From contig NW_005201298.1 of assembly GCF_000372725.1 (NCBI RefSeq), positions 74,093 through 119,232 of the forward strand: DNA of 45,140 bases, read 5' to 3'. Of the stretch, positions 1 through 45,140 are shown one piece after another. The notes beneath the pieces are model-generated. The model saw only the letters and a program-made list of their open reading frames with translations, was not told the origin of the DNA and did no database searches. How positions within the stretch are numbered: the stretch's first letter is position 1; each line of letters starts with the position of its first letter. The DNA is from Emiliania huxleyi CCMP1516. Its lineage: Eukaryota. The position numbers and the translations under genes are program-made.

Positions 1-99
1 ACTCTCCCACCTCTCTATCGCCGAGCAGAGGCCCAGGCGCCGCAACGGAGCAGCTGAGCCGTTGTTCACTCCTCCGCCTCCCTCTCCGCCGCGCTGCAG

Positions 100-2728
100 G
101 GCCTCAACGCGCAGCTCTACTACCGCAACAAGGACCCGCGCGAGTGCGCCACCCTCGTCCGGACGTCGGGAAGCCAACCCGCTCCTCATTGCTCCTCATT
201 GGCTCCTGACTCATCACCGGCTTTAGGTACATCTCCCTCGTCCCGACGTCAGCACACACGGGCGAAGGGGTGGCCGACATCCTGATGAACCTCGTGGGCA
301 TGACGCAAAAGATGTTTGTGGACCGCATCATGTGGACGCCGATGGCGAAGTGCCGCGCCGACCTCCGCGACACGTCCGGGACACGTCCAGGACACGTCCC
401 GACAGGTGGACGCCGATGGTGCAGTGCACCGTACTCGAGGTCAAGGTGATCGAGGGGCTCGGCGCGACCGCCGACGTGACCCTCGCAAACGGGGCGCGGG
501 GCGGACACGCCCACGACACGTCCACGACATGTCCGAGACATGTCCTTAGGTGTGCCGCGGCTGCAGGCGGACACGTCCACGACACGTCCACGACACGTCC
601 GAGGCGTGTGCCCCCGTAGGTGATCCTCGCCAACGGCACTCTCAAGCGCGGGGACCGGATCGTCATGTGCGGCTTTGGCGGGCCGGTCGTCACGCGCGTG
701 CGCGACCTGCTCACGCCTCGCCCGCTGCGCGAGCTGCGCGTCAAGGCCGACTACCTCCACCACCAGGAGCCCGACCGCCCCTCCCGGCTGCTCCCCTCGG
801 CTCACCTCGGCTCCACCTTGGCTCCTCTCGGCCTCCCCTCGGCTCCACTTCGGCTCACCTCGGCTCACCTCGGCTCACCTCGGCTCACCTCGGCTCACCT
901 CGGCTCACCTCGGCTCACCTCGGCTCACCTCGGCTCACCTCGGCTCACCTCGGCTCACCTCGGCTCACCTCGGCTCACCTCGGCCACCAGGAGATCGACG
1001 GCGCCGCCGGCATCAAGATCTGCGCCAACCACCTCGAGAACGTCGTGGCGGGCTCCGCCTGCCTCGTCCCGTTCAAGGACGTGCCGTACGACCTCGAGGC
1101 GCTCAAGCAGGACGCGACGGGCTCGTCTTCTTTTCTTTCTTCCAGCCGTGTTTTCTTTTCTGTAGGTGCTCAAGGAGGACGCGATGGGCGAGCTTGTAGA
1201 CAAAGCCGGCCGAGGCACTGCGGCGGCACGGAGGTGCAGATCGGTACCAAGTCATTCCTAGGCGACCTCAACGAGCTGCGGCCAAGGCGGCGACACGTCC
1301 ACGGCACGTCCACGACATGTCCGAGACGTGTCGGATAGGCGACCTCAACAAGCTGGCTAAGGCGGCGTCCGAAGTGAACGGCGGGCTCGGCGTCTACGCG
1401 ATGGCGTCGACCCTCGGCTCGCTCGAGGCGCGGCTCGGGCTCCGTACCGCACCTCCAGAGTACCGAACCCAGTGTGGGTTCAGTCCCGTGGGCGGTGCGG
1501 TAGGCGCTCCTCGAGTTCCTCAAGACGTCAAAGGTCCCCCGCCCCNNNNNNNNNNNNNNNNNNNNNNNNNNNNNNNNNNNNNNNNNNNNNNNNNNNNNNN
1601 NNNNNNNNNNNNNNNNNNNNNNNNNNNNNNNNNNNNNNNNNNNNNTATCCCCGTCGCGGCCACATCTCCCCACATCTCCCCACATCTCCCCACATCTCCC
1701 CACATCTCCCCATCCCCCCCACACCTCTCCCCCGCACAGATCCCCGTCTCTACCACATCTCCCCACATCTCCCCACATCTCCCCATCCCCCCACACCTCT
1801 CCCCCGCACAGATCCCCGTCTCCGCGGTCAACATCGGGCCCATCCACAAGAAGGACGTCATCAAGGCGTCCATCATGCACGAGTTCAAGCCCGAGTACGC
1901 CACCATCCTCGCCTTCGACGTGCCGCTCACAAAGGAGGGCGAGCTGCAGGCCAAGGAGTCGCAGGTCAAGGTCTTCACCGCCGAGATCATCTACCACCTG
2001 TTCGACCAGTTCACAAAGTACATGGCGGACGTGCGGCTCGAGCAGCAGGCAAAGGCGGCGACCACCGCCGTCTACCCCGCCATCTGCAAGGTCTCGTCGC
2101 CCGACCTAGCACACTTCCTCGACACTTCCTCGACACTTCCTCGACACTTCCTCGACACTTCCTAGGTCTCGTCGCCCGACCACGTCTGGTGCCGCGGCGG
2201 GGGAGGGGACCCGATCTTGCTGGGGCTGGCGGTGCAGGAGGGGACCCTCAAGAAGGGCACGCCGCTCTGCGTCGAGCGGCGCGGGCAAAAGGACCCCGAG
2301 ACGGGGCTGCAGGCCTGCAAGACACCGGGCCACCAGAGAACACGAACGGCCCCCTACGCCTGCGCCAGCGCACTCCTCTTTTTTGGGCGGGTAGGCCTAC
2401 CTCGACATCGGGCGCGTCGTCTCGATGGAGCCCGAGAAGGGGAAGCAGGTGGACGTCCTCAAGGCGGGCAAGTCTGCCGCGGTCAAGATCGACGCCGTCA
2501 CGTCGATCCAGTACGGCCGGCAGTTCGACCACACCTACCCGCTGTACGCGCGCGTGACGCGCCGCTCCATCGACGCGATCAAGGAGCTCTTCAAGGAGGG
2601 CGGAAGAGCTGGTGTGAACGGCGTCTCTTCACACTCACTGCTGTGAACAGGAGTTCTTCAAGGAGGACCTCTCCAAGGACGACTGGGCGCTGCTTCTCAA
2701 GCTCAAGAAGCAGTACGGCGTCATCTGA
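100..2728 (+). CDS. eIF5B: Eukaryotic translation initiation factor 5B (IF2 homologue), 3' part; 5' end lies outside the window
   Basis: Manual exons 100-143, 227-331, 406-475, 620-766, 991-1098, 1166-1187, 1339-1427, 1504-1533, 1812-2090, 2166-2312, 2395-2583, 2651-2728 join in one frame. They give eIF5B hallmarks [86 protein letters not shown] and RRSIDAIK. Stop TGA at 2726-2728. Confidence 0.95.
797..984 (+). repeat. Intronic 10-bp tandem repeat (CTCGGCTCAC)n
   Basis: Visible array inside eIF5B intron 767-990; the same unit occurs on the - strand at ~11898-11935 in another intron. Confidence 0.95.
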
Positions 2729-5547: not shown

Positions 5548-5599
5548 AAAAAAGAAAGAAAGAAAACGGACAACCCAAGGGAGGGATGGGAGGACGGCA
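5548..5599. repeat. Dispersed ~50 bp repeat (AAAAAGAAAGAAAGAAAACGGACAACCCAAGGGAGGGATGGGA), copy 1
   Basis: Near-identical copy at ~5951-6000, an inverted copy at ~44818-44858 and a diverged copy near 24630-24690. Confidence 0.85.
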
Positions 5600-5642: not shown

Positions 5643-6678
5643 CTAGCCGTCGCCCACCCTTGGGCGTCCGCCTCTTCCTATCTCTCTTCGCAGTCTCTCT
5701 CCGATTCTCGCTGCGACCGTCGTGCCACCTCGCGGTCGCCCCCTTCTCGTCGTGCTCTCCCTTGTCGCTTCTTCCTCTGTCGCGTCGCTCTCCTCTGTCT
5801 CGTTCTGCGACGCCGCCGCCGCCTGCCGGTCCCTTGTTCTCGCGGCTTCTTTCGCCTTTCGGCGCAGCTCCGCCCTCCTCGCTGCATATCCTGGCCCCTC
5901 GAGTCTATCGAGCTCTCCTCGCGCAAGGACGAGTCTTCTGACGAGTCCAGAAAAAGAAAGAAAGAAAACGGACAACCCAAGGGAGGGATGGGAGGACGGC
6001 GTCTATTATTTCCTGCAGCTCTCCCCGCTCCGTTTCGTGGACATCGAGTGCCTTCCTCCCAACCTTGATGAGCAGTCGAAGCCAGTCTTCGACTCGCTGC
6101 CCGGCCTCGATAACATCGGTGGCGCAGTCTTTGGCATGCTGCACCATTCCTAAGATCTTGTTGGCGATCTTAAACACTTTTCCGACCACCGGAAAGTCCT
6201 CGAGGACATCAAGCGCTTCCTCAATGGTGTCTAATGTTCCTGTCGCGGCGGTGATCACGTGGCCGGCCGTGGTGTCAGCACGCTCGGCGCGTTGCAGTCT
6301 GTTTGTGTAAAATTCCAGGAATTTTTCCAGCTTGTCGAGCTGCTCAACCATGCGCTGCTTCGCCGAGATGGCTGGCGCTGCTTCGAACAACTCAGGAGCA
6401 GGCGATGCCGTAGCCTTGGCCCTCGCCTCCGCCTCCGCTTTCGCCGCAGCGGCCGCCTCCTTCTCCAGCCGCGCCGACTCGCGCTTCTCCGCAGCCTGCT
6501 TTGCCTTCACCTCCTCCGCCGTCCTCTTCGCCGCCTCAGCCTCCGTGCGTGCCTTCTCCTTCGCTTCCCTCCCCCCGGCCGGGAGGTCGGCGTCACGCCA
6601 GAGCGTTATGGGCCTAGACCGAGCGTTACGTGGTGACTGGCGTGGGTGCGCGCGACGACCTGGCGTCCGCGCTTCCAT
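5643..6678 (-). CDS. Coiled-coil protein with an MLKL-N-terminal-like helical bundle segment; possibly interrupted or pseudogenised
   Basis: ORF 5905-6678 contains TLDTIEEALDVLEDFPVVGKVFKIANKILGMVQHAKDCATDVIEAGQRVEDWLRLL, which resembles four-helix-bundle N-termini of MLKL/NLR-like proteins. The frame appears to continue in ORF 5643-5975 after the 50 bp repeat, with no clean AG in phase. Confidence 0.4.
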
Positions 6679-7003: not shown

Positions 7004-7399
7004 TTGTCCCCAGACCCCACAACCACCCCGAAACAAACCGAAGCACTGCCACTGGCGCAAGGAAACATGGCCGCCACTGTTGTCCCCCACACCCCCCCGT
7101 CTCGCACACGCCCAGGGTACGGTACACACACGCCACGACAGTTGGGCTAATCGTGCGGCAACTTCAGGACATCAGGAGTACCCGGACCCTCTCACAGACC
7201 CACTAGATCCCCTCGTCGTCGTGTCCCAGTGTTGTTGCATGTCGAGCTGGCGCCGTCGCCCGGTCACACACACACTCGAGTCCAGGCACACTAGAGGACT
7301 GCCTGAGCTCACAGGGGCATGTACTACTCACTATATTCACACCTACTATGCTGTTTTCACACCGATCATAATACGCGATCGCGCAGATCACCCCCTCAA
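7004..7399 (-). mobile_element. Possible polypurine tract and 3' LTR of the copia remnant
   Basis: On the - strand, TTGAGGGGG (7399-7391) is followed directly by TG, about 100 bp after the RNase H stop. The far LTR end is not determined and no partner LTR is seen. Confidence 0.4.
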
Positions 7400-7499
7400 C
7401 GCCTGCACGGAAGATGGCTGACGTGGTGGGGTTGCACAACGACAGCTAGCCCCTTGGTAGGGCTTGTCATGAGCGGTCGCGTTGCTGACTTGGCCACTT

Positions 7500-7735
7500 T
7501 TAGGCGATCATGAAGCTGGCCAACGGGTGGAAAATGCTTGCTGCCAGTGGCTTCGTCATGAGGTCAGCCAGCTGGCCCTGCGTCCGAATATGGTACAGGT
7601 ACACTCGCTTTGCCTCCTTGACTTGCTCGCGGAGGAAAGCAATTTTCGTTGCGACGTGCTTCATCCGTTTGGACGAGGTATTGCCGTCCGAAAGAAGGAC
7701 CGCCGCTTTATTGTCGCAGTAGACTGGTGGGCGCG
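7500..7735 (-). mobile_element. Ty1/copia retrotransposon remnant: RNase H C-terminus
   Basis: VYCDNKAAV...SKRMKHVATKIAFLREQV...HIRTQGQLADLMTKPL matches the copia RNase H motif set (CDN, KHI, ADxxTKPL). No RT or integrase is seen upstream. Confidence 0.9.
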
Positions 7736-8116
7736 GCAGTTGGCGCGCCACCCGGTGGAGCGCCACGTGCGCCACCGCTTCTGATGACCGTCGTCCATCC
7801 GCCATAGCATTGGAGTCGGTCGGGAGACGGTGCTCCTTCGCCGGCATCGATTGTAGACATCTCGGCGAATAGGAAGACGTAGGTGCTGTGCGAATATTCG
7901 CGCGTTGACGCGGGCGCTGGACTGCGGCCGCGACGCTGGTTGCGGCGAGCGCCTAGACGGTGCTCGTCGCAAACAACGAAAGATGAAACAACGAAGTAAG
8001 AAATACCTTTGGGTAACGGCAAACACAACCATAATCCACGGCCTCGGCGCCTCCGGCGCTGATCGCTACTGGCTCCCCTCTCGCTCGCCGTGCTTCACTG
8101 GCATAGGCCAGCCACC

Positions 8117-8875
8117 ATGCCGCCGCCGTTTTGGGGCGCGATCGATGCGGCGCACACCTTCTGCGAGCCGAAGTATGCAACTTCCACCGTCGTCGCCGAA
8201 TTCTTCAATGCGCTCTCGTCGTTCGTCTACATGGCAGCTGGGGCGGCCATGCTCTGCCGTGGCTGCCACTGGAAGGTCGGTGCGGGCTACGCAATGCTCA
8301 TCGTGGTTGGCGTGGGCTCGGTGCTCTTCCACGCCACCATGCGCTTCACAATGGAGCTCTGTGACGAGGTCCCGATGCTGCTGCTAATCATCGCCTTTCT
8401 CCTCGGCAAGGAGGATTGCCTCGATTGCCTCTCGGGCCCAGCCGGGCGGCGGCGATTCCGCGTGGGCTCGGCGGTGGCCGTCGCGCTCTCCACCGCCGCG
8501 TACATCCACTTCAAAGTGTACCAGATCTTTGTCATCTCATTCACGCTGATGGTGCTCTTCCTGATCGCGACGCACTTCTTCCCGTCGGCGCGCCGCCGCT
8601 GGACGCCCGCCCTCCAGACCTGCTTCGCGCGCGCCGTCGGCGGCATCGGCGCCGGCAAGCTCGTGTGGGAGGCGGAGCAGCGCCTCTGCGCCGCGCACCC
8701 CGGCGTGTGGCCGCTGCACATCGCGTGGCACGTCCTATCGTGCATCGGAGGCGTCTACGCAACCAAATACAATGAGGAGCTGCGCGCGATCGTCGCCATC
8801 GAGGGGACGAAGGAGGCTGGCCGTGAGCCGCGGCGATCGCCACGACTGGTGGGGGCGCACACGAAGCGGCACTGA
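8117..8875 (+). CDS. ACER: Alkaline ceramidase (CREST superfamily), intronless
   Basis: FWGAIDAAHTFCEPKY...AEFFNALSS, GSVLFHATM, DEVPM and HIAWH motifs, plus several hydrophobic helices; ATG at 8117 in GCCACCATG context. Confidence 0.92.
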   Translation: MPPPFWGAIDAAHTFCEPKYATSTVVAEFFNALSSFVYMAAGAAMLCRGCHWKVGAGYAMLIVVGVGSVLFHATMRFTMELCDEVPMLLLIIAFLLGKEDCLDCLSGPAGRRRFRVGSAVAVALSTAAYIHFKVYQIFVISFTLMVLFLIATHFFPSARRRWTPALQTCFARAVGGIGAGKLVWEAEQRLCAAHPGVWPLHIAWHVLSCIGGVYATKYNEELRAIVAIEGTKEAGREPRRSPRLVGAHTKRH

Positions 8876-9900: not shown

Positions 9901-10470
9901 CTAGCGCGCAGGCGGTGCCCGACAGGCTCCGCCGCCCACGGCTGCTTGAGCGTCTTCTTCGCGTGCACAACCAGCTCGTGCGCCTCTGCCGAGGAGTGGA
10001 GAAGTACTGCAGCAGCGCGAGAGCATACTCGCGCAGGGCGGCCTCCTCGACCAGGACAGCAACCCCAAACATCGGGCCGGTCCTCTCGAGCAGCTTGAAG
10101 CCGATCCGGTCGCGCATATGGTCACGACGTAGAAAAAGGATGGCGGGAGATGGCGTTGCGCATGAAAGGCCCGAACAAACCGCTCGGGGATGTTGTCGAG
10201 GGGATCCCACGTCCAACCATCGACATCGTCGCCTTCCCAGGCGATCAGAAGCTCGATCCCCCCAGCTCTCTGCCGCCACGAGATGACCTTCTCGACGTTG
10301 TAGCTCTCTGGCAGCACGGCCGTTTTCGGCCCCGCCCGGACCTGCGGCGGTTTTGGTTGGATTCCGTGAGATACCGATTTTTCTGTCACTGAATAATTGG
10401 CATAGTGCTTGCCATGAGGGTGTTGAGGGTTGGGGGGGCGGTGGTATGCGCCACATAAATCGGGAAGTAC
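9901..10470 (-). CDS. Chromodomain-containing ORF or fragment; start uncertain
   Basis: YNVEKVISWRQRAGGIELLIAWEGDDVDGWTWDPLDNIPERFVRAF (~10160-10305) fits the chromodomain consensus Y.VE.I...R.....L..W.G.....TW.P..N. Confidence 0.6.
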   Translation of the reverse strand, partial: VLPDLCGAYHRPPNPQHPHGKHYANYSVTEKSVSHGIQPKPPQVRAGPKTAVLPESYNVEKVISWRQRAGGIELLIAWEGDDVDGWTWDPLDNIPERFVRAFHAQRHLPPSFFYVVTICATGSASSCSRGPARCLGLLSWSRRPPCASMLSRCCSTSPLLGRGARAGCAREEDAQAAVGGGACRAPPAR

Positions 10471-11065
10471 CATCCTGTGCGCCGCAAAGGCCGATCGCGC
10501 CCGACGGTGGGGCGGCTCACCGCACACACACAGTTGCGAGGCCGAGCCCGCCGGGCGCGTAGAGCCGAGTGGCCGGGGGGGAGGCGGACCAGGGAAACCG
10601 CGCGCGGCAGTGCGAGGTGACACGATGTGGCGCGGGCACGGCGGGGGAGACGCAGACGGCGCTGTGCTAGGGGGGCGCGGAGCGCACATGGCACATTGTA
10701 GCGCAGAAAAGGGACTCGAAAAGGGCCTGATGAGTGTGGGAAAAGTGGAACAAGCTCCAGTCGCACCGTGCCCGTCTCCTACCCGACGGTGGCACTCTTC
10801 CACGTCTCGCTCACGCTGAGAAAAATTCTGAAACTAGAACACCCAACATACGCACGGTTCCGCCAAAAGAGTGGCAAGTGCCGCGCGCGCCCTCTCTCCG
10901 TTCGCGCTCTCTCGAGCGCACACATGGACATGCAAGATGCATGCCTGCCCCACCACACCATTATACAGTACACGGGGCTCGCGTTGAGATACACACATTT
11001 GCGGCGCGGCGGCGCTTTGCCCGCTTCGCGGCGCGCGCTCCTGCCCCCTCCGCCCGCCCGCCGCC

Positions 11066-15547: not shown

Positions 15548-17893
15548 CGGCGGCGGCCCCGCGCCTCGGCGAGACGCTGCGTCGGCGCTGGGGGCCGAAG
15601 AGGTGATCGACTTGGAGGCGGCCAACGGGGTCGGTCTCGGTGCGAGCGGCAAGCCGCTGCTGCCGGGCGAGCTCGAGGCGAGGCAGCAGCGCAGGCCGAG
15701 TTGGGTTCGGGGCCAAGAGGCTTCGACGAGCTTTCCCGGAGCCCCTCCCTTAGCTCTCCCGTAGGCGCCGCTCGGCTGGGACACGGCCTGGCTTCGCGAG
15801 TCCAAGACAACGCGTGCATGACATGTACATGTGCATGACATGTACATGTCCCTAGGCGCCGCTCGCCTCGCACGTCCCTCGAGGCATGTCCACGACACGT
15901 CCACGACACGCCCACGACACGTCCGGGACACGTCCACAGGCGCAGCTCGTGGACGCTACGCGCGTCTCGATCGACCGAAGAGACTCCCGAGGAGCAGCAC
16001 TACCGCCTCGCGGAGAGCGCGTTTTGCCGCGGCGGAGGGGTGGCGGCGCAGATCGCAAGCATCGACTACCACTTCCACCCCGCTCTCGAGGCCGCGCTGG
16101 CAGAACACAAACCCCACTCGCGGGCAGAGGACGCGGCACAGGACGGGGCACACGCGCCAGTCCGCAGACACGGGGAGGAGCGGTAGTGACGCTCACCCCC
16201 TCCCAGAGAGCCATTCTGCGAGAGGCCGCCGTGTTCGCCCCGCTTGGCGGGGAGTCTATAAGCGACGACGGCATCAGGCGCGCTGGCACGCCAAGAAGGC
16301 GGACTACGACGCGACGTACGGCCCTGGCAACCACACCATCCTCTTAATTAACTATGAAGTGACTCTTGAGTGACTCTTCATTCACTCTTAATGAATAGGC
16401 AACCACACCATCCTCTTAATTAACTATGAAGTGACTCTTGAGTGACTCTTAATTAATTCACTCTTAATGAATAGACAACCACACCATCCTCTTAATTAAC
16501 TATGAAGTGACTCTTGAGTGACTCTTCATTCACTCTTAATGAATAGGCAACCACACCATCCTCTCAATTAACTATGAAGTGACTCTTGAGTGACTCTTCA
16601 TTCGCTCTTAATGAATAGGCAACCACACCATCCTCTTAATTAACTATGAAGTGACTCTTGAGTGACTCTTCATTCACTCTTAATGAATAGGCAACCACAC
16701 CATCCTCTTAATTAACTATGAAGTGACTCTTGAGTGACTCTTCATTCACTCTTAATGAATAGGCAACCACACCATCCTCTTCGCCTTCCACGGCACGCGG
16801 CAGGCAAACGTGCGCCCGATCCTGGCGGAAGGATTCAAGCTCTCCAAGGTCGAACTATTACTTAACCAACCATTCATTTATTATTGGTTACCTATTAATC
16901 ATCTCCAAGGTCGGCTCAACGACCGACCCGGGCTTCTACGGCGCGGGAATCTACTTTTCGGAGCAGCTGCAGATGTCGATGGGATACAACAGCGGGAGCG
17001 ACTCATCCTAGAAGCAGAGCACGGATTCTTGCATCCCAGCCAGCGCTCGAGAGGACACGTATTCAACGGTATTCAGCCGATTCCACTGTGGTTCACTGTC
17101 GCCCCTCGTATTCACGCGGCGCTCTGAAGACGCCGCACGAGACCGTCCTCCCGCCCTCATGTCGGCGTACTCACCCTGTAGGAACGACGGCATGTTCCTC
17201 TGTAAGCTCCTCGTTGGCAAGCCGTTCCTCGCGCCGCTGCAGCAAGGGCGAGGGCTTCAGGCGGGCTATACGAGCCACGTGTCGGACGCGAGCGGCAGCG
17301 AGGTGATCATGTTTGACGAGGCGCGAATTAACATCTCAATCACTCGTTAATTAGTTAGTTCATATGTTAATTAGCTCACCATGTGTGACGAGGCGGCGAT
17401 GCTGCCGCTCTACTTCGTCTTTCTGCGCCCCCAGGGCGCCCACGGCCCTCTCGGCCACCATCATGGCCATCTTGGCCACGCTGCGGCGGCAGCGCACAAG
17501 GAGCCGCTCAAGGGTCTCGGCGGCGGCGGCGGCGGCGGCGGCGGCGTGTTGGGCGGCCTGGGCGGCTTGGGCGGCGCCATCGGTGGAGCGATGCACACGC
17601 TCGGCGGCGCATTTGGCCTGGGTGGCGCCTCATCGTCGTTGCCGGCCGCCGCCGTCGGGGCTGCCGCCGCTCTCGCCGGCGGCGGTGGCTGGGGCGCGGG
17701 CAACGTGCTGGGCGGCGGCAAGAGGCCGCGGGCGGACCACGACGCCGCGGTCGTGGCGCGGCTGCTGAGCGAGAGCCGTGGCGGCAAGGGCCGCCCGCGA
17801 GGGGCGGCCGGGCGCGCGGAGGGCGCGGAGGGCGCGGAGGAGGAGATGGTGCGCGAGGCGATGCGGCGGAGCTTGCTGCCGGGAGGGCGGTAG
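14976..17893 (+). CDS. FHA domain, PARP-type ADP-ribosyltransferase and C-terminal UIM-like protein (~600 aa)
   Basis: Exons 14976-15719, 15765-15811, 15940-16090, 16278-16326, 16763-16848, 16910-16995, 17182-17320, 17393-17893 are in frame. FHA: VVVGR...SISREH. ART: FAFHGT, ILAEGF, GFYGAGIYFS, MFLCKLLVG, SEVIMFD. UIM-like: EEEMVREAMRRSL. Confidence 0.85.
16327..16762 (+). repeat. Six tandem 72-bp units forming one intron of the PARP gene
   Basis: Units start at 16327, 16399, 16475, 16547, 16619 and 16691. Each begins (G/A)CAACCACACCATCCTC, the start of the next exon, and ends AATGAATAG. Confidence 0.95.
16996..17181 (+). mobile_element. Introner-like element, copy 1 (PARP gene intron)
   Basis: Shares CCTAGAAGC, CCCA.CCAGCGCTCGAGAGG, CGTA.TCACGCGG and CCGTCCTCCCGCCCTCATG blocks with introns at 19250-19505, 22768-22982 and 40663-40840. 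Confidence 0.7.
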
Positions 17894-18451: not shown

Positions 18452-21400
18452 TCAGCCCCTGTAGCGCGCAGCGGCCGCCGCCGCCACGGCGGCCGCGGCC
18501 GCGGCGGCGGCGGCGAGCGCAAGAGCGCCCGCCGACGGCGCCTGACTCCACGCCGCCACCGGGCCCTTGTCGGCGGCGCGCTTGGCCTTGTCCGAGAGGA
18601 TGGCGGCGGCGGCGCTGTCACGAGACGCCTTTGCGTTGCGTCGGCCGGCGCGCGATCACATGAGTATATGAGTAGCAGTCCCAGACTAGCAATACTCCCC
18701 AGACGCCTTTGCGTTGCCCGGCCGGCGCGCGAGCTTGAGGGCGCGCGCGTCGAGATGCGCCTCCACGTCGGCGATAGTGACGCCGGCGGCGACGCAGCGC
18801 ACGAGCGCGAAGAAGAGGAGGTCGGCGGCCTACCATTAATGAACAACTCTCATTAATTAATATTAACTGATATACCCGAGATGACCCGCGACTACCCGAG
18901 GTCGTCCTCAGTTTAAGGAAGAGGGGGTGGGCGGCCTCAGAGGCGATGTGGAGGTAATCTCGGGTGATCTCGGGTAATCTCAGGTAATCTCGGGTAATCT
19001 CGGGTAGTCTCGGGTAATCTCGGGGATTTCGGGGAGGAGGTCGGCGGCCTCAGAGGCGATGTCGTCTGGCTCCTCTGCCTCTGCCAGCTCCTGCGCCTAG
19101 ATGATCCGAGATGCCCCGAGATGCCCCGAGATGCCCCGAGATGACCCTCCGCCTCTGCCAGCTCCCGCGAACCTCTTCCACAAGCTTGGAGCGGAGGAGG
19201 GTCGAGTCGTCAAAGAGCCGCTTGGTGTACGAGCCGGCCGGCGCCGAGCCTGCGGTGTGAGTGCGCCGGCATGAGGGCGGGAGGACGGTGTCGGGCAGAG
19301 TACTTGTGGCACCGCGTGAGTACGAGGGAGGCGAGTACAATGTGCACAGCGGAGTGCGGCCGAGTACGGCGGAGTCCGTGTCGTCTCGAGCGCTACCGGG
19401 AGCACAAGAACACGGCTCCGCTCCTCCCCGCTGCCCCTGCTCACGAGATATGGGGAGATACGGGGGAGATACGGGGAGAGATTCCGCTTCTAGGGGCCGC
19501 CGCGCCGCGCCGCGACTGCAGCGTCTCCTGCAGCGCGCGTAGGCCGCTCGGGAAGCCCCAGCACGTCAGCGTGCCTGCAGGGGCAGCACGAGACACTACT
19601 GACTGGCAGTGGCCCCACCGCATAGCATGACCCCCCCCCCCCCCCAGCAATGTCAGCGTGCCTCGGTGGCAAAAGGATGGCGGCGAGCCGTACTGGCGGA
19701 CAGTGAAGCGGAGTGCGTCGCCGTCGGAGTCGACGGCCACACGGCAGAGCCGCTGCCACGCGCCTACTCCCATCGACAGTCTCTTCAACCTCTGAACCTT
19801 CACTCGCGCGGCAGAGCCGCTGCCACGCGCCTACTCCCATCGACAGTCTCTTCAGCCTCTGAACCTTCACTCGCGCGGCAGAGTCGCTGCCACGCGCCTA
19901 CTCCCATCGACAGTCTCTTCAACCTCTGAACCTTCACTCGCGCGGCAGAGTCGCTGCCACGCGCCTACTCCCATCGACAGTCTCTTCAACCTCTGAACCT
20001 TCACTCGCGCGGCAGAGTCGCTGCCACGCGCCTACTCCCATCGACAGTCTCTTCAACCTCTGAACCTTCACTCGCGCGGCAGAGTCGCTGCCACGCGCCT
20101 ACTCCCATCGACAGTCTCTTCAACCTCTGAACCTTCACTCGCGCGGCTGAGCCGCTGCCACGCGCCTACTCCCATCGACAGTCTCTTCAACCTCTGAACC
20201 TTCACTCGCGCGGCAGAGTCGCTGCCACGCGCCTACTCCCATCGACAGTCTCTTCAACCTCTGAACCTTCACTCGCGCGGCAGAGTCGCTGCCACGCGCC
20301 TACTCCCATCGACAGTCTCTTCAACCTCTGAACCTTCACTCGCGCGGCAGAGTCGCTGCCACGCGCCTACTCCCATCGACAGTCTCTTCAACCTCTGAAC
20401 CTTCACTCGCGCGGCAGAGTCGCTGCCACGCGCCTACTCCCATCGACAGTCTCTTCAACCTCTGAACCTTCACTCGCGCGGCAGAGTCGCTGCCACGCGC
20501 CTACTCCCATCGACAGTCTCTTCAACCTCTGAACCTTCACTCGCGCGGCAGAGTCGCTGCCACGCGCCTACTCCCATCGACAGTCTCTTCAACCTCTGAA
20601 CCTTCACTCGCGCGGCAGAGTCGCTGCCACGCGCCTACTCCCATCGACAGTCTCTTCAACCTCTGAACCTTCACTCGCGCGGCAGAGTCGCTGCCACGCG
20701 CCTACTCCCATCGACAGTCTCTTCAACCTCTGAACCTTCACTCGCGCGGCAGAGTCGCTGCCACGCGCCTACTCCCATCGACAGTCTCTTCAACCTCTGA
20801 ACCTTCACTCGCGCGGCAGAGTCGCTGCCACGCGCCTACTCCCATCGACAGTCTCTTCAACCTCTGAACCTTCACTCGCGCGGCAGAGTCGCTGCCACGC
20901 GCCTACTCCCATCGACAGTCTCTTCAACCTCTGAACCTTCACTCGCGCGGCAGAGTCGCTGCCACGCGCCTACTCCCATCGACAGTCTCTTCAACCTCTG
21001 AACCTTCACTCGCGCGGCAGAGTCGCTGCCACGCGCCTACTCCCATCGACAGTCTCTTCAACCTCTGAACCTTCACTCGCGCGGCAGAGTCGCTGCCACG
21101 CGCCTACTCCCATCGACAGTCTCTTCAGCCTCTGAACCTTCACTCGCGCGGCAGAGTCGCTGCCACGCGCCTACTCCCATCGACAGTCTCTTCAGCCTCT
21201 GAACCTTCACTCGCGCGGCAGAGCCGCTGCCACGCGCCTACTCCCATCGACAGTCTCTTCAGCCTCTGAACCCTCACTCGCGCGGCAGAGTCGCTGCCAC
21301 GCGCCTACTCCCATCGACAGTCTCTTCAACCTCTGAACCTTCACTCGCGCGGCAGAGCCGCTGCCACGCGCCTACTCCCATCGACAGTCTCTTCAACCTC

Positions 21401-31850: not shown

Positions 31851-32548
31851 GTAGTGGAGATTGGGGCCGTGCGTGTACAGCTCGCGCGAGCGGAAAGCCT
31901 TCGCGAAAGGAAAAAGAATTATCCGTGAATCACCTAGTGGGCCATAGTGGGCCACTGCCACCATTCTTTTTCTGCTCATAACAAATTGCCCTGCCCAACA
32001 TATTTTAGTTACTGGGTCCTAATGGCTATGTGGGAGAAGTTTGGTCTTTGTTTCATGGGGGGATCTGGATATATTCACGGCTAAAGTTGGTGCCGGCACG
32101 GCTCCCCTAGCCGGTCTCTCGGGGCAGGCCGGGAAGAGCCTCCAGGCCTTCTGTGGAGCTTAGGTAGGGTCCCCAGCCAGCCTCAGCTGCAAGGCAGTCT
32201 CCAGGGGCCATGTAGCATGCCTGACATGACAGTGCAACCCACCCGGACACGGGTAGCGCACCAGAGAGGGCCTGTCCTCGTCGTCGAAGCCGGCGGCGGC
32301 GCGTGGCGCGAAGCGGAAGTCATCGGCACCGCCGAATCCGGAGCCTAAGAAGGGGAGGAAGAAGTGAGCGAGGAGTGCAGTCTGTGTTTTGCAAGAATGG
32401 TGACACGCGTAGACACAAGTACTAGTACGACCTGAGTACGCTCCAGGCTCCAGCCACACAGCCAGGCCAGTGCTTTGCAATGCCGCACACGCCAAAAGTG
32501 AAAACGAGCAGTGCTACGTGCGGAGTGTGGGATTACTCACGACTGGGC

Positions 32549-33000
32549 GTGTCGCGACCGCCGCCGCGAGGCTCGTGGCGATGGAGGCGCCGGCGCCAGC
32601 ATGCGCCGCCTCCCTCAACGCCCGAAACTCGGTCACAGCCGGGGGAGCGACAGCGGCAGAGATGCGGGCCGCTGGCGACCTCACACGGCGCCAAGCGCCG
32701 TAGAGGTAGCCCCGAGAGACGCAGCTGGGTGTGTCGCGACCGCCGCCGCGAGGCTCGTGGCGATGGAGGCGCCGGCGCCAGCATGCGTCGCCTCCCTCAA
32801 CGCCCGAAACTCGGTCACAGCCAGCGGAGCGACGGCGGCAGAGATGCGGGCCGCCGGCGACCTCACACGGCGTCGCACGCCGTAGAAATGACCCCGAGAG
32901 ACGCCGCAAGGTGCGTCGCGACCGCCGCCGCGAGGCTCGTGGCGATGGAGGCGCCAGCGGCAGCATGCGCCGCCTCCCTCAACGCGCGACACTCGGTCGA
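32549..33000. repeat. ~182-bp tandem repeat, about 2.5 units
   Basis: GTCGCGACCGCCGCCGCGAGGCTCGTGGCGATGGAGGCGCC recurs at ~32551, ~32733 and ~32915. Confidence 0.9.
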
Positions 33001-33847
33001 GGCTGGCTCGAACTGCTCGAGGCCAGCTGCCTGACTTGTATTGACAGCGAGTGTGTCGCCACTCGCTCCTGATCACACGTTGAGGGGGGCGTGGACATGT
33101 TAGCCCTCGGCAGCTGCGATGCGCACACACCTGTCGCACGGATCCAGCGGTGGTGGCGATATGCTGCTCGGCGAGCCAAAGAGAGCGTGCCACCGAGAGC
33201 GTGCCACCGAGAGCGTGCCACCTAGAGCGGAGTGCGCCGCCCTCCGCAGCGGGAGTCGGTTGCGGGTGGTGCAGCGGCGCCGTGATAGAACAACAGGCGC
33301 CGGCTCGGCACGCTGAGTGCACACGCGACGCGTCGCGCGTGCACGCACTGCTCGTGCAGCGCCAAACAGCGTCCGCCAGCGCAGAGAAAGGAGCCCGTGC
33401 CGACTCGTGCACGCCTGCGACAGCTCGAGCGGCTCAGCGCGAGTGCTGGCTCACATCCGGTCGGCTCACAGTGCTTGGGCAGCCAGGCTCACCGTCGGCG
33501 AGAGCAGCTGCGAGCGACACCACGTCGAGCCAAGGCGACGCTTTCTTCCGTGGCCGCCGCGGCTCGTTTCCGCCACGCGGTGGGGTGCGGCGGAGGCCGA
33601 GGCGTGCGCCAGCCGCGCTCGAGACCAGCAGGCGGCCTGGGAGGGCGCTCACACGCCGCGACGACCTCGGCGAAGCGAGGCGTCGCGCCAGGTCATTCAC
33701 GGTTATGCATAGACTAGTGTGGGACCTGCGGCGGTACCCGTCTCTGTTGTTCGGGCAGTGAGAGACGCAGGATCTGCACGCCAAAGTGGGCCACTCATTT
33801 GCATTTTGGTTTTGGGTTGTCGGAGATCATCCATCAGCACTCATGTC

Positions 33848-34040
33848 TCATCAGTCAGTCACGTCAGTCAAAGCAGTTCGTGGCACTCATCAGTCAGTCA
33901 CGTCAGTCAAAGCAGTTCGTGGCACTCATCAGTCAGTCACGTCAGTCAAAGCAGTTCGTGGCACTCATCAGTCAGTCACGTCAGTCAAAGCAGCCGTGGC
34001 ACTCATCAGTCAGTCACGTCAGTCAAAGCAGTCGTGGCAC
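33848..34040. repeat. 39-bp tandem repeat, about 5 units
   Basis: CTCATCAGTCAGTCACGTCAGTCAAAGCAGTTCGTGGCA is repeated. Confidence 0.92.
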
Positions 34041-41338: not shown

Positions 41339-42270
41339 TGAGTGAGTGAGGGGGGGGGGTCGCGCTCGACCTCCGCGAGGCGCAGCAACCGACGGAGATA
41401 CACGCACCGCACGAAGGTCAGCAGGACGACAATGACACCGAGGGCGCAGACACTCGTGCCCGCGATCGCTGGCCACTGCTGCGGCACGCACCTGGGGAGA
41501 TGTGTCAGGAGATGTGGGGAGATATATCAGGAGATATGGGGAGATGTATCAGGAGATATGGGGAGATATGGGGAGATGTGGCCACTGCTGCGGCACGCAC
41601 CTCCCGTTGCCCGCGCTCGGCTTGTGGTACGCGAAACGGCAAGGCTGGCACTCGGCAGCCGGCAAGCGCCTGTCATGGGTAGGCGGGCCATCCTAGATAA
41701 CTCGATCACTGTTGACTTTGTGAGGGCGGCCGGCACGGCCGCACCACCCCTCTCACTGTACAAGGTGCGAGAGTGAGAGCGCCACGCAGAGAGGGTATCT
41801 CCGGACCTCACATAAGGCCTCCTCGAGCTGGCTAGAGGAGGTCGGTGGGAGGGAGAGGTGGAGAAAGAGGGACTTGGAGGTGTCCGTGTGTGTTTGCTTG
41901 CACGCGCCTCAGCGCTTCAAAGTCGACCTCGAAGCCGGACGCATCGTCCGCCCGGAAGGTCGGCTCGAGGTGCGCGCCGCAGCCGCACCCGCGACTTGGC
42001 AGCGGCACGAGCGGCGCCGGACACCGCGCGATGATCGTGCGCGTGTCAACGAGCGCGCCGTCGAGCAGCAGCAGGAGCGCGTGCGCGCCGACGAGCGGCG
42101 CGAGCACGGTTGCCTTGTACCGGCCGTCCGAGGCATAGACGACCGCCATGTCGTCGTGTGCACCGGAGGCGCTGTCGCGGACGAGGACGGTGAACGCCTG
42201 TGTTGCGTGTCCGACGGTCACTGTGCTATCGTGCGGCTTCGGGCCCGGGGCTGTGCTTTTGTGTGAACGC
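39455..42270 (-). CDS. Single-pass receptor-like protein: filamin/Ig-like segment, Cys repeat, TM helix and HET-like cytoplasmic domain (partial, gapped)
   Basis: In order: DGRYKATVLAPLVGAHALLLLLDG (filamin-like); ECQPCRFAYHKPSAGNGR|CVP (ephrin-receptor-like Cys repeat); VCALGVIVVLLTFV-RCVYLRR (TM plus stop-transfer); FVSHQW..HPDP..IWLDYHS..PQ..YLQRGWCRLEQW (HET-like). Confidence 0.7.
40663..40840 (-). mobile_element. Introner-like element, copy 4 (receptor-like gene intron); repeated at ~42371-42486
   Basis: - strand: CCTAGAAGCGGAACACG..TCCCAACCAGCGCTCGAGAGGG..CACTCCGCTGCATTCGGCCG; the 3' half is more diverged. Confidence 0.65.
41116..41348. repeat. (GT)n/(CA)n microsatellite in intron 40976-41370; second copy at 42761-42880
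   Basis: Directly visible. Confidence 0.97.
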
Positions 42271-43399: not shown

Positions 43400-45140
43400 N
43401 NNNNNNNNNNNNNNNNNNNNNNNNNNNNNNNNNNNNNNNNNNNNNNNNNNNNNNNNNNNNNNNNNNNNNNNNNNNNNNNNNNNNNNNNNNNNNNNNNNNN
43501 NNNNNNNNNNNNNNNNNNNNNNNNNNNNNNNNNNNNNNNNNNNNNNNNNNNNNNNNNNNNNNNNNNNNNNNNNNNNNNNNNNNNNNNNNNNNNNNNNNNN
43601 NNNNNNNNNNNNNNNNNNNNNNNNNNNNNNNNNNNNNNNNNNNNNNNNNNNNNNNNNNNNNNNNNNNNNNNNNNNNNNNNNNNNNNNNNNNNNNNNNNNN
43701 NNNNNNNNNNNNNNNNNNNNNNNNNNNNNNNNNNNNNNNNNNNNNNNNNNNNNNNNNNNNNNNNNNNNNNNNNNNNNNNNNNNNNNNNNNNNNNNNNNNN
43801 NNNNNNNNNNNNNNNNNNNNNNNNNNNNNNNNNNNNNNNNNNNNNNNNNNNNNNNNNNNNNNNNNNNNNNNNNNNNNNNNNNNNNNNNNNNNNNNNNNNN
43901 NNNNNNNNNNNNNNNNNNNNNNNNNNNNNNNNNNNNNNNNGGTTCCTCCCGTCGCCTCTTCTTTGTTCGAATGTTTTTCAATCCATCCTTCACGAAGCCC
44001 TCCCATGTAGCTAGCGTTCTTGGCGAATGTCTCGAAATGGCCAGCAGGCGCTGTCTGCTCGCGGTCTGTGCGGGCCGCTCGTCCTCCTCGCCCTTCTTTC
44101 GTCCTCCCGTCCCTCCCCTCCACCATGGCCTTCTCGGCACTTCTTTCTCCATCCGCCTCGCCCTGCCTTTTCGCATCGTGCCGTTCGCCCTCCATTCGGT
44201 GACCTCCATGGCTGTCCGCCCCTTTTTGGGTGGCGCTCTCGATACGGTTGCGTCAACCTCGACGTCGCTGTCGCCCTCCCCGTCCCCGCCGGCGTCCGTG
44301 CCTCGGTTCGCGTCATCGGTAGCGTCTCCGTTGTTCCCTCGTGCCCCGCCGTCGCCCTCTCTGCTCGGGCCGTTAGCGATTTCGCTCCTCCTGCGTGTCG
44401 CCCCTCCGTCCCCTCCCCTTTCTTCGTCGTCATCGTCGCTGTCGCGAAAGCCCTCCGGTCCCTCGATTCCCTCGCCTATCCCCTCCGCTAATCCTGAGCA
44501 ACAATAAGCGACTGTACCACGGAGCACAGAGCGCAGCAGACAGGACGGCGGCGACGGCGGACATGGCAGAGACGAGTGTGAAACAAAGGGCGGCGGGCGT
44601 GGAGGGCGGTAGCGACGGGGATGGAGACGGTGACGGTGGCGAGGGAGAGGAAGGGGGTCCATTAACACCAGACAGCGAGAGGGGCAGGGAGGAAAGGGGG
44701 AGAGAGGAAGCCAACGCGACGTGCGCAGAGGATGAGGATATAAACTGGGACGACGCAGCGGAGGGGATTGAAGAATTTGATGGGCCTATCGGTGTTCTCG
44801 AGGTTCGTTATACCATCCCATCCCTCCCTTGGGTTGTCTGTTTTCTTTCTTTCTTTCTAGGTTCGTTATACCAAAAAGAGGGCTCGAGGTTCTCGAGGTG
44901 GATATCCTTTGGCCCTATCGGTGTGTATGAGTGTGTGTCTTGTCTTGTGGTTCTGTGTGTGTCGCTCCTGTGTGACCGTCATCGCCCGTTCTGCGTCCAC
45001 CCATACCGCGTTGGTGTCCCATCGCGCCGATCACATCAGCGGACCGACGGTGCGTCTGGACGCGCACTTTGCACTCCGGGTCCCAGACAGAGGCATCTCT
45101 CAAAGTGTCGCCGCATGGCCTCATCGGCCAGTCGTTCACC

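What the first reader, a model, noticed from the sequence alone, without database searches (positions are those of the whole stretch)
144..2650. Introns begin with a copy of the next exon's first bases (duplication-born introns)
Seen: in eIF5B the intron 5' end repeats the start of the downstream exon. Examples (intron vs exon): 332/406 GTGGACGCCGATGG (14 nt exact); 2091/2166 GTCTCGTCGCCCGACC (16 exact); 144/227 GTGCGCCACCCTCGTCCGGACGTC vs GTACATCTCCCTCGTCCCGACGTC; 476/620 GTGACCCTCGCAAACGG vs GTGATCCTCGCCAACGG; 1099/1166 GCGCTCAAGCAGGACGCGACGGGC vs GTGCTCAAGGAGGACGCGATGGGC; 2584/2651. Ten of 11 introns show this clearly, at varying divergence. Established: tandem duplication of proto-splice sites and staggered-break repair are proposed intron-gain routes, usually seen only in rare young introns. 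Inference: here it is the dominant and continuing route (duplicated exon end + filler + new AG), or boundary homology is being actively maintained.
Basis: partly seen in the sequence, partly recalled or inferred. Interest (0 to 1): 0.9.

Follow-up and report, generated by a model that had tools for sequence, protein, structure and literature searches.

The report
Introns born with long target duplications
In three genes of this marine alga, most RNA-supported introns carry a 15-37-base copy of the neighbouring exon at their edge, likely the decaying scar left when short repeated DNA pieces were inserted and became introns, which would also explain why these introns start with GC or GA as often as with the usual GT.

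Summary
RNA contigs support 11 eIF5B introns and 7 more in two other genes. Excluding the splice dinucleotide, intron start matches next-exon start at 110/154 positions in eIF5B (shuffled 51±4) and 48/98 elsewhere (28±3). Correction: 8 of 11 are clear at the intron start, 2 hold the good copy inside the intron, 1 is weak. Layout: exon copy (15-37 nt, variable) + filler from genome-wide repeat families + AG. This reads as a target-site duplication (TSD) around an insertion, not simple tandem duplication. In 15 of 18 introns the donor equals the next exon's first two bases (GT/GC/GA). Copies decay: 21 of 23 differences would change the protein, 14 are AT→GC, so they are not maintained. Second copies sit inside introns, and whole intron units are tandemly amplified (72 bp ×6, 67 bp ×34). 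Introners that take their donor from a TSD are known, and E. huxleyi (likely this species, inferred) is in introner tables, mostly with TSD unresolved; long variable duplications across nearly all introns were not found in my searches. Not shown: enzyme, ongoing gain, novelty of positions. This scan noted one similar intron in a euglenid.

The parts
144..226 (+). eIF5B intron, GT donor; 24-nt copy of next exon (19/24) + GCTCCTCATT-type filler + AG
332..405 (+). eIF5B intron, GT; 22-nt copy (20/22) + 11-mer GACACGTCC repeats
476..619 (+). eIF5B intron, GT; 17-nt copy (15/17); two GACACGTCC blocks with an internal TAG-G at 548-550
767..990 (+). eIF5B intron, GA donor; duplication spans the junction (7 nt upstream exact + 13/18 downstream); 10-mer CTCACCTCGG array
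1099..1165 (+). eIF5B intron, GC donor where the exon has GT; 24-nt copy (21/24); pyrimidine filler
1188..1338 (+). eIF5B nested intron, GC: decayed copy + filler 1 + TAG, then a fresher copy at 1262 (16/17) + a different filler + TAG; RNA uses the distal AG
1428..1503 (+). eIF5B intron, GC; 16-nt copy (12/16); dispersed filler with a 9-nt inverted repeat (1445-1453 / 1494-1502)
1534..1811 (+). eIF5B intron, GT where the exon has AT; N gap 1546-1645; internal copies at 1647 and 1740 (72-nt unit doubled, also in independent contig L001)
2091..2165 (+). eIF5B intron, GT; AG + 16-nt exact copy; 11-mer ACACTTCCTCG filler ending CCTAG
2313..2394 (+). eIF5B intron, GC; weak, gapped copy of about 18 nt
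2584..2650 (+). eIF5B intron, GA; 16-nt copy (15/16); filler 2613-2650 is a dispersed family whose other copies diverge exactly after the AG-G
   Evidence: (tables 2, 7)
16327..16762 (+). predicted intron of a PARP-like gene = six tandem units of [19-nt exon-start copy + filler + TAG]; no RNA laid
16996..17181 (+). RNA-supported intron, GA; weak 11-12-nt copy, then a ~175-nt CCTAGAAGC-family element
17321..17392 (+). RNA-supported intron, GC; its 3' end copies the upstream exon end (span about -20..+6)
18629..18706 (-). RNA-supported intron in a PRA-PH (histidine biosynthesis) gene, GC; ~37-nt duplication spanning AG|GC (34 identities)
18830..19048 (-). RNA-supported nested intron, GC; 15/15 copy + filler A + internal copy of exon-1 end and exon-2 start + filler B + AG
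19097..19172 (-). RNA-supported intron, GT; 22/25 copy shifted by two extra bases
19250..19505 (-). RNA-supported intron, GC; weak copy, CCTAGAAGC-family element with a tandem filler inside it
19575..19661 (-). RNA-supported intron, GC; 10 nt exact, about 20 nt with one gap
15689..15939 (+). predicted triple-nested intron (start approximate): three different fillers, each ending AG; the two inner copies share one difference from the exon; no RNA laid
41493..41600 (-). predicted intron: AG + 21-nt exact copy + ACATCTCCCC-type filler; no RNA laid
44803..44860 (+). predicted intron: AG + 13-nt exact copy + filler also found at 5549-5598 and 5951-6000; no RNA laid

Best explanation
Most of these introns carry a variable 15-37-base copy of the adjacent exon next to a filler that ends in AG, and they likely arose when short repeated elements were inserted at widely staggered cuts in exons, most likely by target-primed reverse transcription (enzyme not found), so that the duplicated target supplies the GT/GC/GA donor. 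Steps: (1) shown: copy, filler, AG, and splicing that leaves one copy in the mRNA. (2) Shown for two families and indicated by depth for others: fillers recur at many loci and end at the same AG. (3) Inferred: the copy is a TSD made at insertion; only insertions whose TSD starts with G-T/C/A, or holds AG|G, survive in exons. (4) Shown: the intron copy differs from the exon mostly by AT-to-GC, amino-acid-changing bases; inferred: free decay, which also turns GT donors into GC (1099). (5) Inferred: YAG|G ends are re-targeted, giving nested introns, and unequal exchange between the two copies multiplies the whole unit in tandem; the same exchange would delete an intron precisely. The TSD-insertion part I put at about 0.7; reverse transcription as the chemistry at about 0.4.
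For: RNA junctions for 18 introns in 3 genes. Excess identity 158/252 vs 75.8±6.3, none of 50,000 shuffles reaching it; 48/98 vs 28.0±3.4 for the 7 introns outside eIF5B. Donor equals the next exon's first two bases in 15 of 18. The register varies as for a TSD: downstream only, spanning AG|G (767, 18629) or mainly upstream (17321); upstream excess 89/252 vs 65.6±6.5, p 0.0002. Fillers are dispersed: summed contig depth over them is 100-fold or more above single-copy flanks in X7 and X5 (not a copy number), and 26 contigs in each run leave the window exactly at 2651. The CCTAGAAGC family lies at 4 distinct loci with shared start and AG end, 62% mean column identity. Decay: 21 of 23 differences non-synonymous, where all 13 exon SNPs checked are synonymous; 15 of 62 A/T sites vs 8 of 117 G/C sites differ, p 0.002; other samples have their own changes in the intron copy at 159 and 2596/2598. 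Nested copies behind different fillers (1188, 18830, 15689) and arrays whose unit is one intron.
Against: No empty allele: X7, X5 and L001 keep the eIF5B introns they cover (only 15 of 75 joints were shown, and contigs drop rare variants). No orthologue was compared, so gain at new positions is not shown. No poly(A) tail; the CCTAGAAGC family keeps its 5' end in 5 of 5 matches, unlike 5'-truncated retro-copies, and one filler has a 9-nt inverted repeat like a DNA element. No reverse transcriptase, endonuclease or transposase family among 15 of 131 long ORFs scanned. AG ends and sense orientation are also what selection for splicing would leave under any mechanism. 3 of 18 introns show only a weak copy. 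An annotation-free scan did not separate signal from control (38 vs 33 of 58 pairs).
Confidence: 0.68

Rival explanations
1. Intron positions are old; the same insertion process keeps landing on existing YAG|G junctions, adds copy + filler + AG, and older upstream parts are later lost. The pattern then records renewal of introns, not gain.
For: Nested cases show second events at existing junctions (1188, 18830, 476, 15689). 12 of 18 upstream exons end in AG. All sampled alleles carry the introns.
Against: 13 of 18 introns begin or end directly in the copy with no older remnant at the donor; renewal needs an extra precise deletion each time. 11 introns in about 1.3 kb of coding sequence is dense.
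Confidence: 0.15
2. No mobile element: host repair of staggered double-strand breaks, or plain tandem duplication of an AG|GY segment, makes the copy; the filler is captured repeat DNA or grows by slippage.
For: Variable length; fillers often join the copy through 1-3 shared bases (sequence); 18629 and 767 contain AG|G inside the duplication as in the tandem-duplication model; short repeats at new Daphnia introns were read as break repair (PMC3488318, passage).
Against: Families with fixed ends at several loci; a 16-24-nt duplication alone is shorter than any intron here (67 nt or more) and would shift the frame; in Drosophila direct repeats at gained introns were no commoner than at conserved ones (19/77 vs 26/100, PMC3296678).
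Confidence: 0.13
3. The homology is actively maintained by gene conversion or needed for splicing.
For: Several copies are exact (2091 16/16, 18830 15/15); in 18830 the donor copy matches the exon while the inner copy has 2 of 18 differences.
Against: Wide range of decay, 21 of 23 non-synonymous differences, AT-to-GC bias and allele-specific changes; introns with almost no copy are spliced (2313, 16996, 19250).
Confidence: 0.04

Closest known systems
Introner elements with TSD-derived splice sites (Gozashti 2022, PMC9860276; Symbiodinium and Polarella ILEs, bioRxiv 10.1101/2020.10.14.339549)
   Same: Element carries the 3' AG and the donor comes from the TSD; GA/GC donors; several registers relative to the TSD; later shift of donors towards GC.
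   Different: Described TSDs are 3-9 bp and fixed per family, often with TIRs; here about 10-37 nt and variable, with tandem-repeat fillers, across nearly all introns examined and many unrelated fillers.
E. huxleyi introner families in the survey supplements (PMC9860276 Tables 5-6; PMC12130899 file 8)
   Different: 653 elements in 5 families (2022; TSD '?' for 4, 'N' for 1) or 3 families of 5-45 members (2025; automated TSD 2, 4 or none). No general long exon copy, nesting or unit amplification in the rows I saw; I did not match their sequences to these fillers.
Daphnia pulex intron gains with short repeats (Li 2009, seen only as cited in PMC3488318) and tandem genomic duplication (as listed in PMC3296678)
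   Same: Direct repeats at intron edges; parallel gains at one site resemble the nesting here.
   Different: Those are rare polymorphic gains without repeated families; here the mark is on most introns and all sampled alleles carry them.
Replitron-1 and Helitrons of Chlamydomonas (PMC10288648, section 9)
   Same: Orientation-specific insertion next to RG with variable-length TSD; short terminal direct repeats (the 2613-2650 filler starts and ends with TGTGAAC).
   Different: Elements of 0.9-3.6 kb, not shown to make introns; no Rep gene seen in this window.
GC-AG-rich introns of E. huxleyi (PMC4028052)
   Same: About 60% GC donors there; 10 GC, 5+1 GT... here 9 GC, 6 GT, 3 GA of 18.
   Different: That paper attributes GC donors to genome GC content; here the donor is traced to the copied exon bases.

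Membership tests
Introner (intron-generating mobile element) | Similar intron sequence at several unrelated loci | tested here: met
   CCTAGAAGC family at 4 loci; 26 contigs per DNA run diverge at 2651
Introner (intron-generating mobile element) | Spliced out, mRNA restored | tested here: met
Introner (intron-generating mobile element) | Locus-specific TSD supplying a splice site | tested here: met
Introner (intron-generating mobile element) | Empty site in an allele, paralogue or relative | tested here: inconclusive
   none in X7, X5, L001 for eIF5B; no relative available
MITE / DDE cut-and-paste introner | Fixed TSD of 3-9 bp | tested here: not met
   spans of about 10-37 nt, variable
MITE / DDE cut-and-paste introner | Terminal inverted repeats | tested here: inconclusive
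   9-nt inverted repeat in the 1428 filler; none seen by eye at the ends of the CCTAGAAGC family
Non-LTR (LINE/SINE/Penelope-type) insertion | Long, variable TSD | tested here: met
   that this is typical of non-LTR elements is recalled
Non-LTR (LINE/SINE/Penelope-type) insertion | Poly(A) or repeat tail at a fixed 3' end, ragged 5' end | tested here: inconclusive
   no poly(A); 10-11-mer repeats abut the AG; 3' end sharp at 2651, 5' starts at 2611-2614; CCTAGAAGC family has a fixed 5' end
Non-LTR (LINE/SINE/Penelope-type) insertion | Autonomous partner with RT and endonuclease sharing the 3' end | not testable with these tools
   no genome held; none among 15 ORFs scanned
Tandem genomic duplication of AG|GY | Intron is wholly a duplicate of flanking exon, both splice sites inside it | tested here: not met
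   copy is a minority of each intron and the rest is filler; 6 of 18 upstream exons lack AG
Replitron / Helitron (HUH) | Rep-encoding partner; terminal hairpin and target dinucleotide | not tested
   only resemblance: TGTGAAC direct repeats, frequent CTAG ends

The most novel reading that the evidence does not exclude
Almost the whole intron complement of this lineage is written and rewritten by one process: intron-derived RNAs are reverse-transcribed into staggered cuts, primed at YAG|G, leaving long exon copies that supply GC/GA/GT donors, re-target existing splice junctions and act as handles for tandem amplification or precise loss. Each intron would then carry its own clock, making intron birth, renewal and loss datable genome-wide.
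Probability: 0.25. Interest if true: 0.92.

Novelty: new variant of a known kind. Interest (0 to 1): 0.74.

Why it matters
How introns are gained is a long-standing question because the marks of birth usually vanish. Here most introns checked keep a long, locus-specific copy whose decay can be counted, so the age of each event, donor shifts (GT to GC) and repeat use of a site could be measured for a whole genome. It offers a mechanistic reason for the GC/GA donors and intron retention reported for E. huxleyi, points to an unidentified insertion chemistry with long variable TSDs, and warns that aligners can slide junctions by 10-17 bases ('both' column) and so misannotate such genes.

Tried and rejected
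No whole genome is held, so no genome-wide count. Annotation-free repeat scan of the window: 58 of 622 pairs kept after masking; AG/CT test 38 vs 33 in the mirrored control, uninformative. Filler motifs in public collections: 0 in viral contigs, 0 in GTDB genomes, 1 in metagenome contigs, which was the same eIF5B locus, so no set of independent insertion sites was obtained. No comparison with full-length eIF5B homologues or orthologous loci was completed; intron-position age stays open. Species not established by a tool: the intronless ceramidase is in NCBI/UniRef/EukProt with names withheld, and Atlas taxa were uninformative; Emiliania/Gephyrocapsa huxleyi is inferred from GC content, marine runs, GC donors and recalled 10-11-bp intron repeats. 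Assembly artefact rejected for the doubled unit at 1715-1822, which is also in L001; the 72- and 67-bp arrays were not confirmed outside this assembly. Splice-consensus artefact rejected by dropping positions 1-2 and shuffling pairs. One tandem unit of the 2613 filler has depth 4091 in RNA run X10 against 139 for eIF5B: a possible source transcript, but contig depth cannot rank expression. Read 2013, Li 2009 and Huff 2016 are not held.

Full report
Gene model. Window 1-2728 is the 3' part of an eIF5B/IF-2 gene. Eleven introns (144-226, 332-405, 476-619, 767-990, 1099-1165, 1188-1338, 1428-1503, 1534-1811, 2091-2165, 2313-2394, 2584-2650) leave an open frame to the stop. One exon passes Pfam IF-2; two others hit EF-Tu domains below cut-off. 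In one search, RNA contig X10 record 2 has 1269 nt, equal to exons 406-475 through 2651-2838, and every piece coordinate fits the model; X12, from another study, agrees at six of those junctions and supports 332 by a loose end. RNA cannot fix the cut where both copies match; I used the AG-ending register, which was unique for each of the 7 joints tested.

The signal. Positions 3-16 of intron and next exon match at 110 of 154, against 50.6±4.4 in 73,273 derangements. Eight introns are clear (16-24 nt, 72-100%), two have their best copy inside the intron, one is weak. One search gave 7 more intron joints, 2 in a PARP-like gene (one run, depth 3.8) and 5 in a PRA-PH gene (two or three runs; for names; an eighth row was a go-back joint and was left out): 48 of 98 against 28.0±3.4. 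Over all 18: 13 clear at the junction, 2 nested, 3 weak; donors 9 GC, 6 GT, 3 GA; the donor equals the next exon's first two bases in 15. In 767, 17321 and 18629 the duplication reaches upstream of the junction (up to about 37 nt), so its register is not tied to the exon start.

The filler. After the copy comes either an array of 10-11-mers or a short dispersed element. In DNA runs X7 and X5 summed depth over fillers is 100-fold or more above single-copy flanks (the tool warns that this is no copy number), and 26 contigs in each run part from the window exactly at 2651, after AG-G. A ~170-nt family starting CCTAGAAGC lies at 5 places (0.39 expected; two are one assembly repeat), ends in AG at one alignment column in the 4 aligned, and starts 11 bases after the donor in both RNA-supported cases. 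Locus-specific direct repeats around shared fillers are the definition of a TSD used in PMC9860276 (passage).

Fate of the copy. Across ten eIF5B copies (179 sites), 21 of 23 differences would change the protein, whereas 13 of 13 exon SNPs are synonymous. A/T sites differ in 15 of 62, G/C sites in 8 of 117 (p 0.002); 14 changes are AT to GC in the intron copy. At 1099 such a change gives GC where the exon has GT. Other samples have private changes in the copies (159; 2596, 2598). This is decay, not upkeep. No exon SNP fell inside a duplicated span, so conversion was not tested directly.

Second events. 1188-1338 holds an old copy, a filler ending TAG, a fresher copy and a different filler; RNA uses the last AG. 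18830-19048 holds an inner copy of both exon ends. At 15689-15939 (no RNA) two inner copies share a difference from the exon, which suggests an insertion at a TAG-G inside an intron, where splicing did not require it; this is the best hint that YAG|G is targeted. The 72-bp ×6.3 and 67-bp ×34.3 arrays have as unit one exon-start copy + filler + TAG; go-back joints 2651/2652 to 2611-2614 show such units for the 2613 family elsewhere; the doubled unit at 1715-1822 is also in L001. Unequal exchange between the copies is the inferred cause.

Mechanism. Best: insertion of short non-autonomous repeats at widely staggered cuts, donor from the TSD, AG from the element or the TSD (0.68). Fixed short TSDs of DDE transposases are not met. 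Long variable TSDs suggest target-primed reverse transcription (recalled; about 0.4), but host break repair and HUH elements (PMC10288648) remain; no enzyme was found among 15 of 131 long ORFs. Against my reading: no empty allele in X7, X5 or L001, no orthologue test, a fixed 5' end in one family, and an uninformative annotation-free scan. Renewal at old positions is the main rival.

Literature seen. PMC9860276 and PMC12130899: passages and supplement rows for Emiliania (files 13-14 of the latter not searched; the former's file was cut when stored). They list E. huxleyi introners, TSD mostly '?', one family noted with '10bp terminal direct repeats'. bioRxiv 10.1101/2020.10.14.339549, PMC4028052, PMC11282704, PMC3296678, PMC3488318, PMC10290126, PMC2784329: passages. 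PMC10288648: passages and section 9. Read 2013, Li 2009, Huff 2016: not seen. Ten full-text searches, read as listings, showed no paper describing long exon copies at haptophyte intron edges; subscription papers and unseen supplements could. The species is inferred, not shown.

Verdict. Real, general within the window, a new variant of TSD-borne introners; interest 0.74.

Noticed in passing
window 5484, 13758, 14359, 24551, 31911 (+), 31963 (-): AAAAAGAAT occurs 6 times, 0.02 expected, several times near apparent gene starts; possible promoter or leader motif.
   Followed up: partly
window 40.7-41.8 kb and 42.4-43.4 kb: Near-identical 1-kb blocks on either side of N gaps; probably two haplotypes or an assembly repeat.
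   Followed up: no
window 8117-8875: Intronless ceramidase (Pfam E 1e-31); the top Atlas feature hit is a mostly Nucleocytoviricota cluster, next hits eukaryotic; no inference drawn.
   Followed up: partly
window 7200-7950 (-): Reads like a Copia RNase H fragment (recalled motif); no Pfam hit.
   Followed up: partly
window 5549-5598 and 5951-6000: Identical 50-nt direct repeat 402 bp apart, sharing its core with the intron filler at 44816-44860; could be ends of a mobile element.
   Followed up: partly
window 2611-2652: A contig of this filler plus 29 foreign bases in tandem has depth 4091 in RNA run X10 and 2217 in DNA run X7: candidate source array.
   Followed up: no
window 9904-10833 (-): Weak chromodomain hit, below cut-off.
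   Followed up: no
window 32543-32998, 33847-34040: 182-bp ×2.5 and 39-bp ×5 arrays; not checked for the intron-unit layout.
   Followed up: no
L001 vs window 2105-2166: In L001 the filler of intron 2091 is bounded by CCTAGG at both ends; CTAG recurs at many filler ends.
   Followed up: partly
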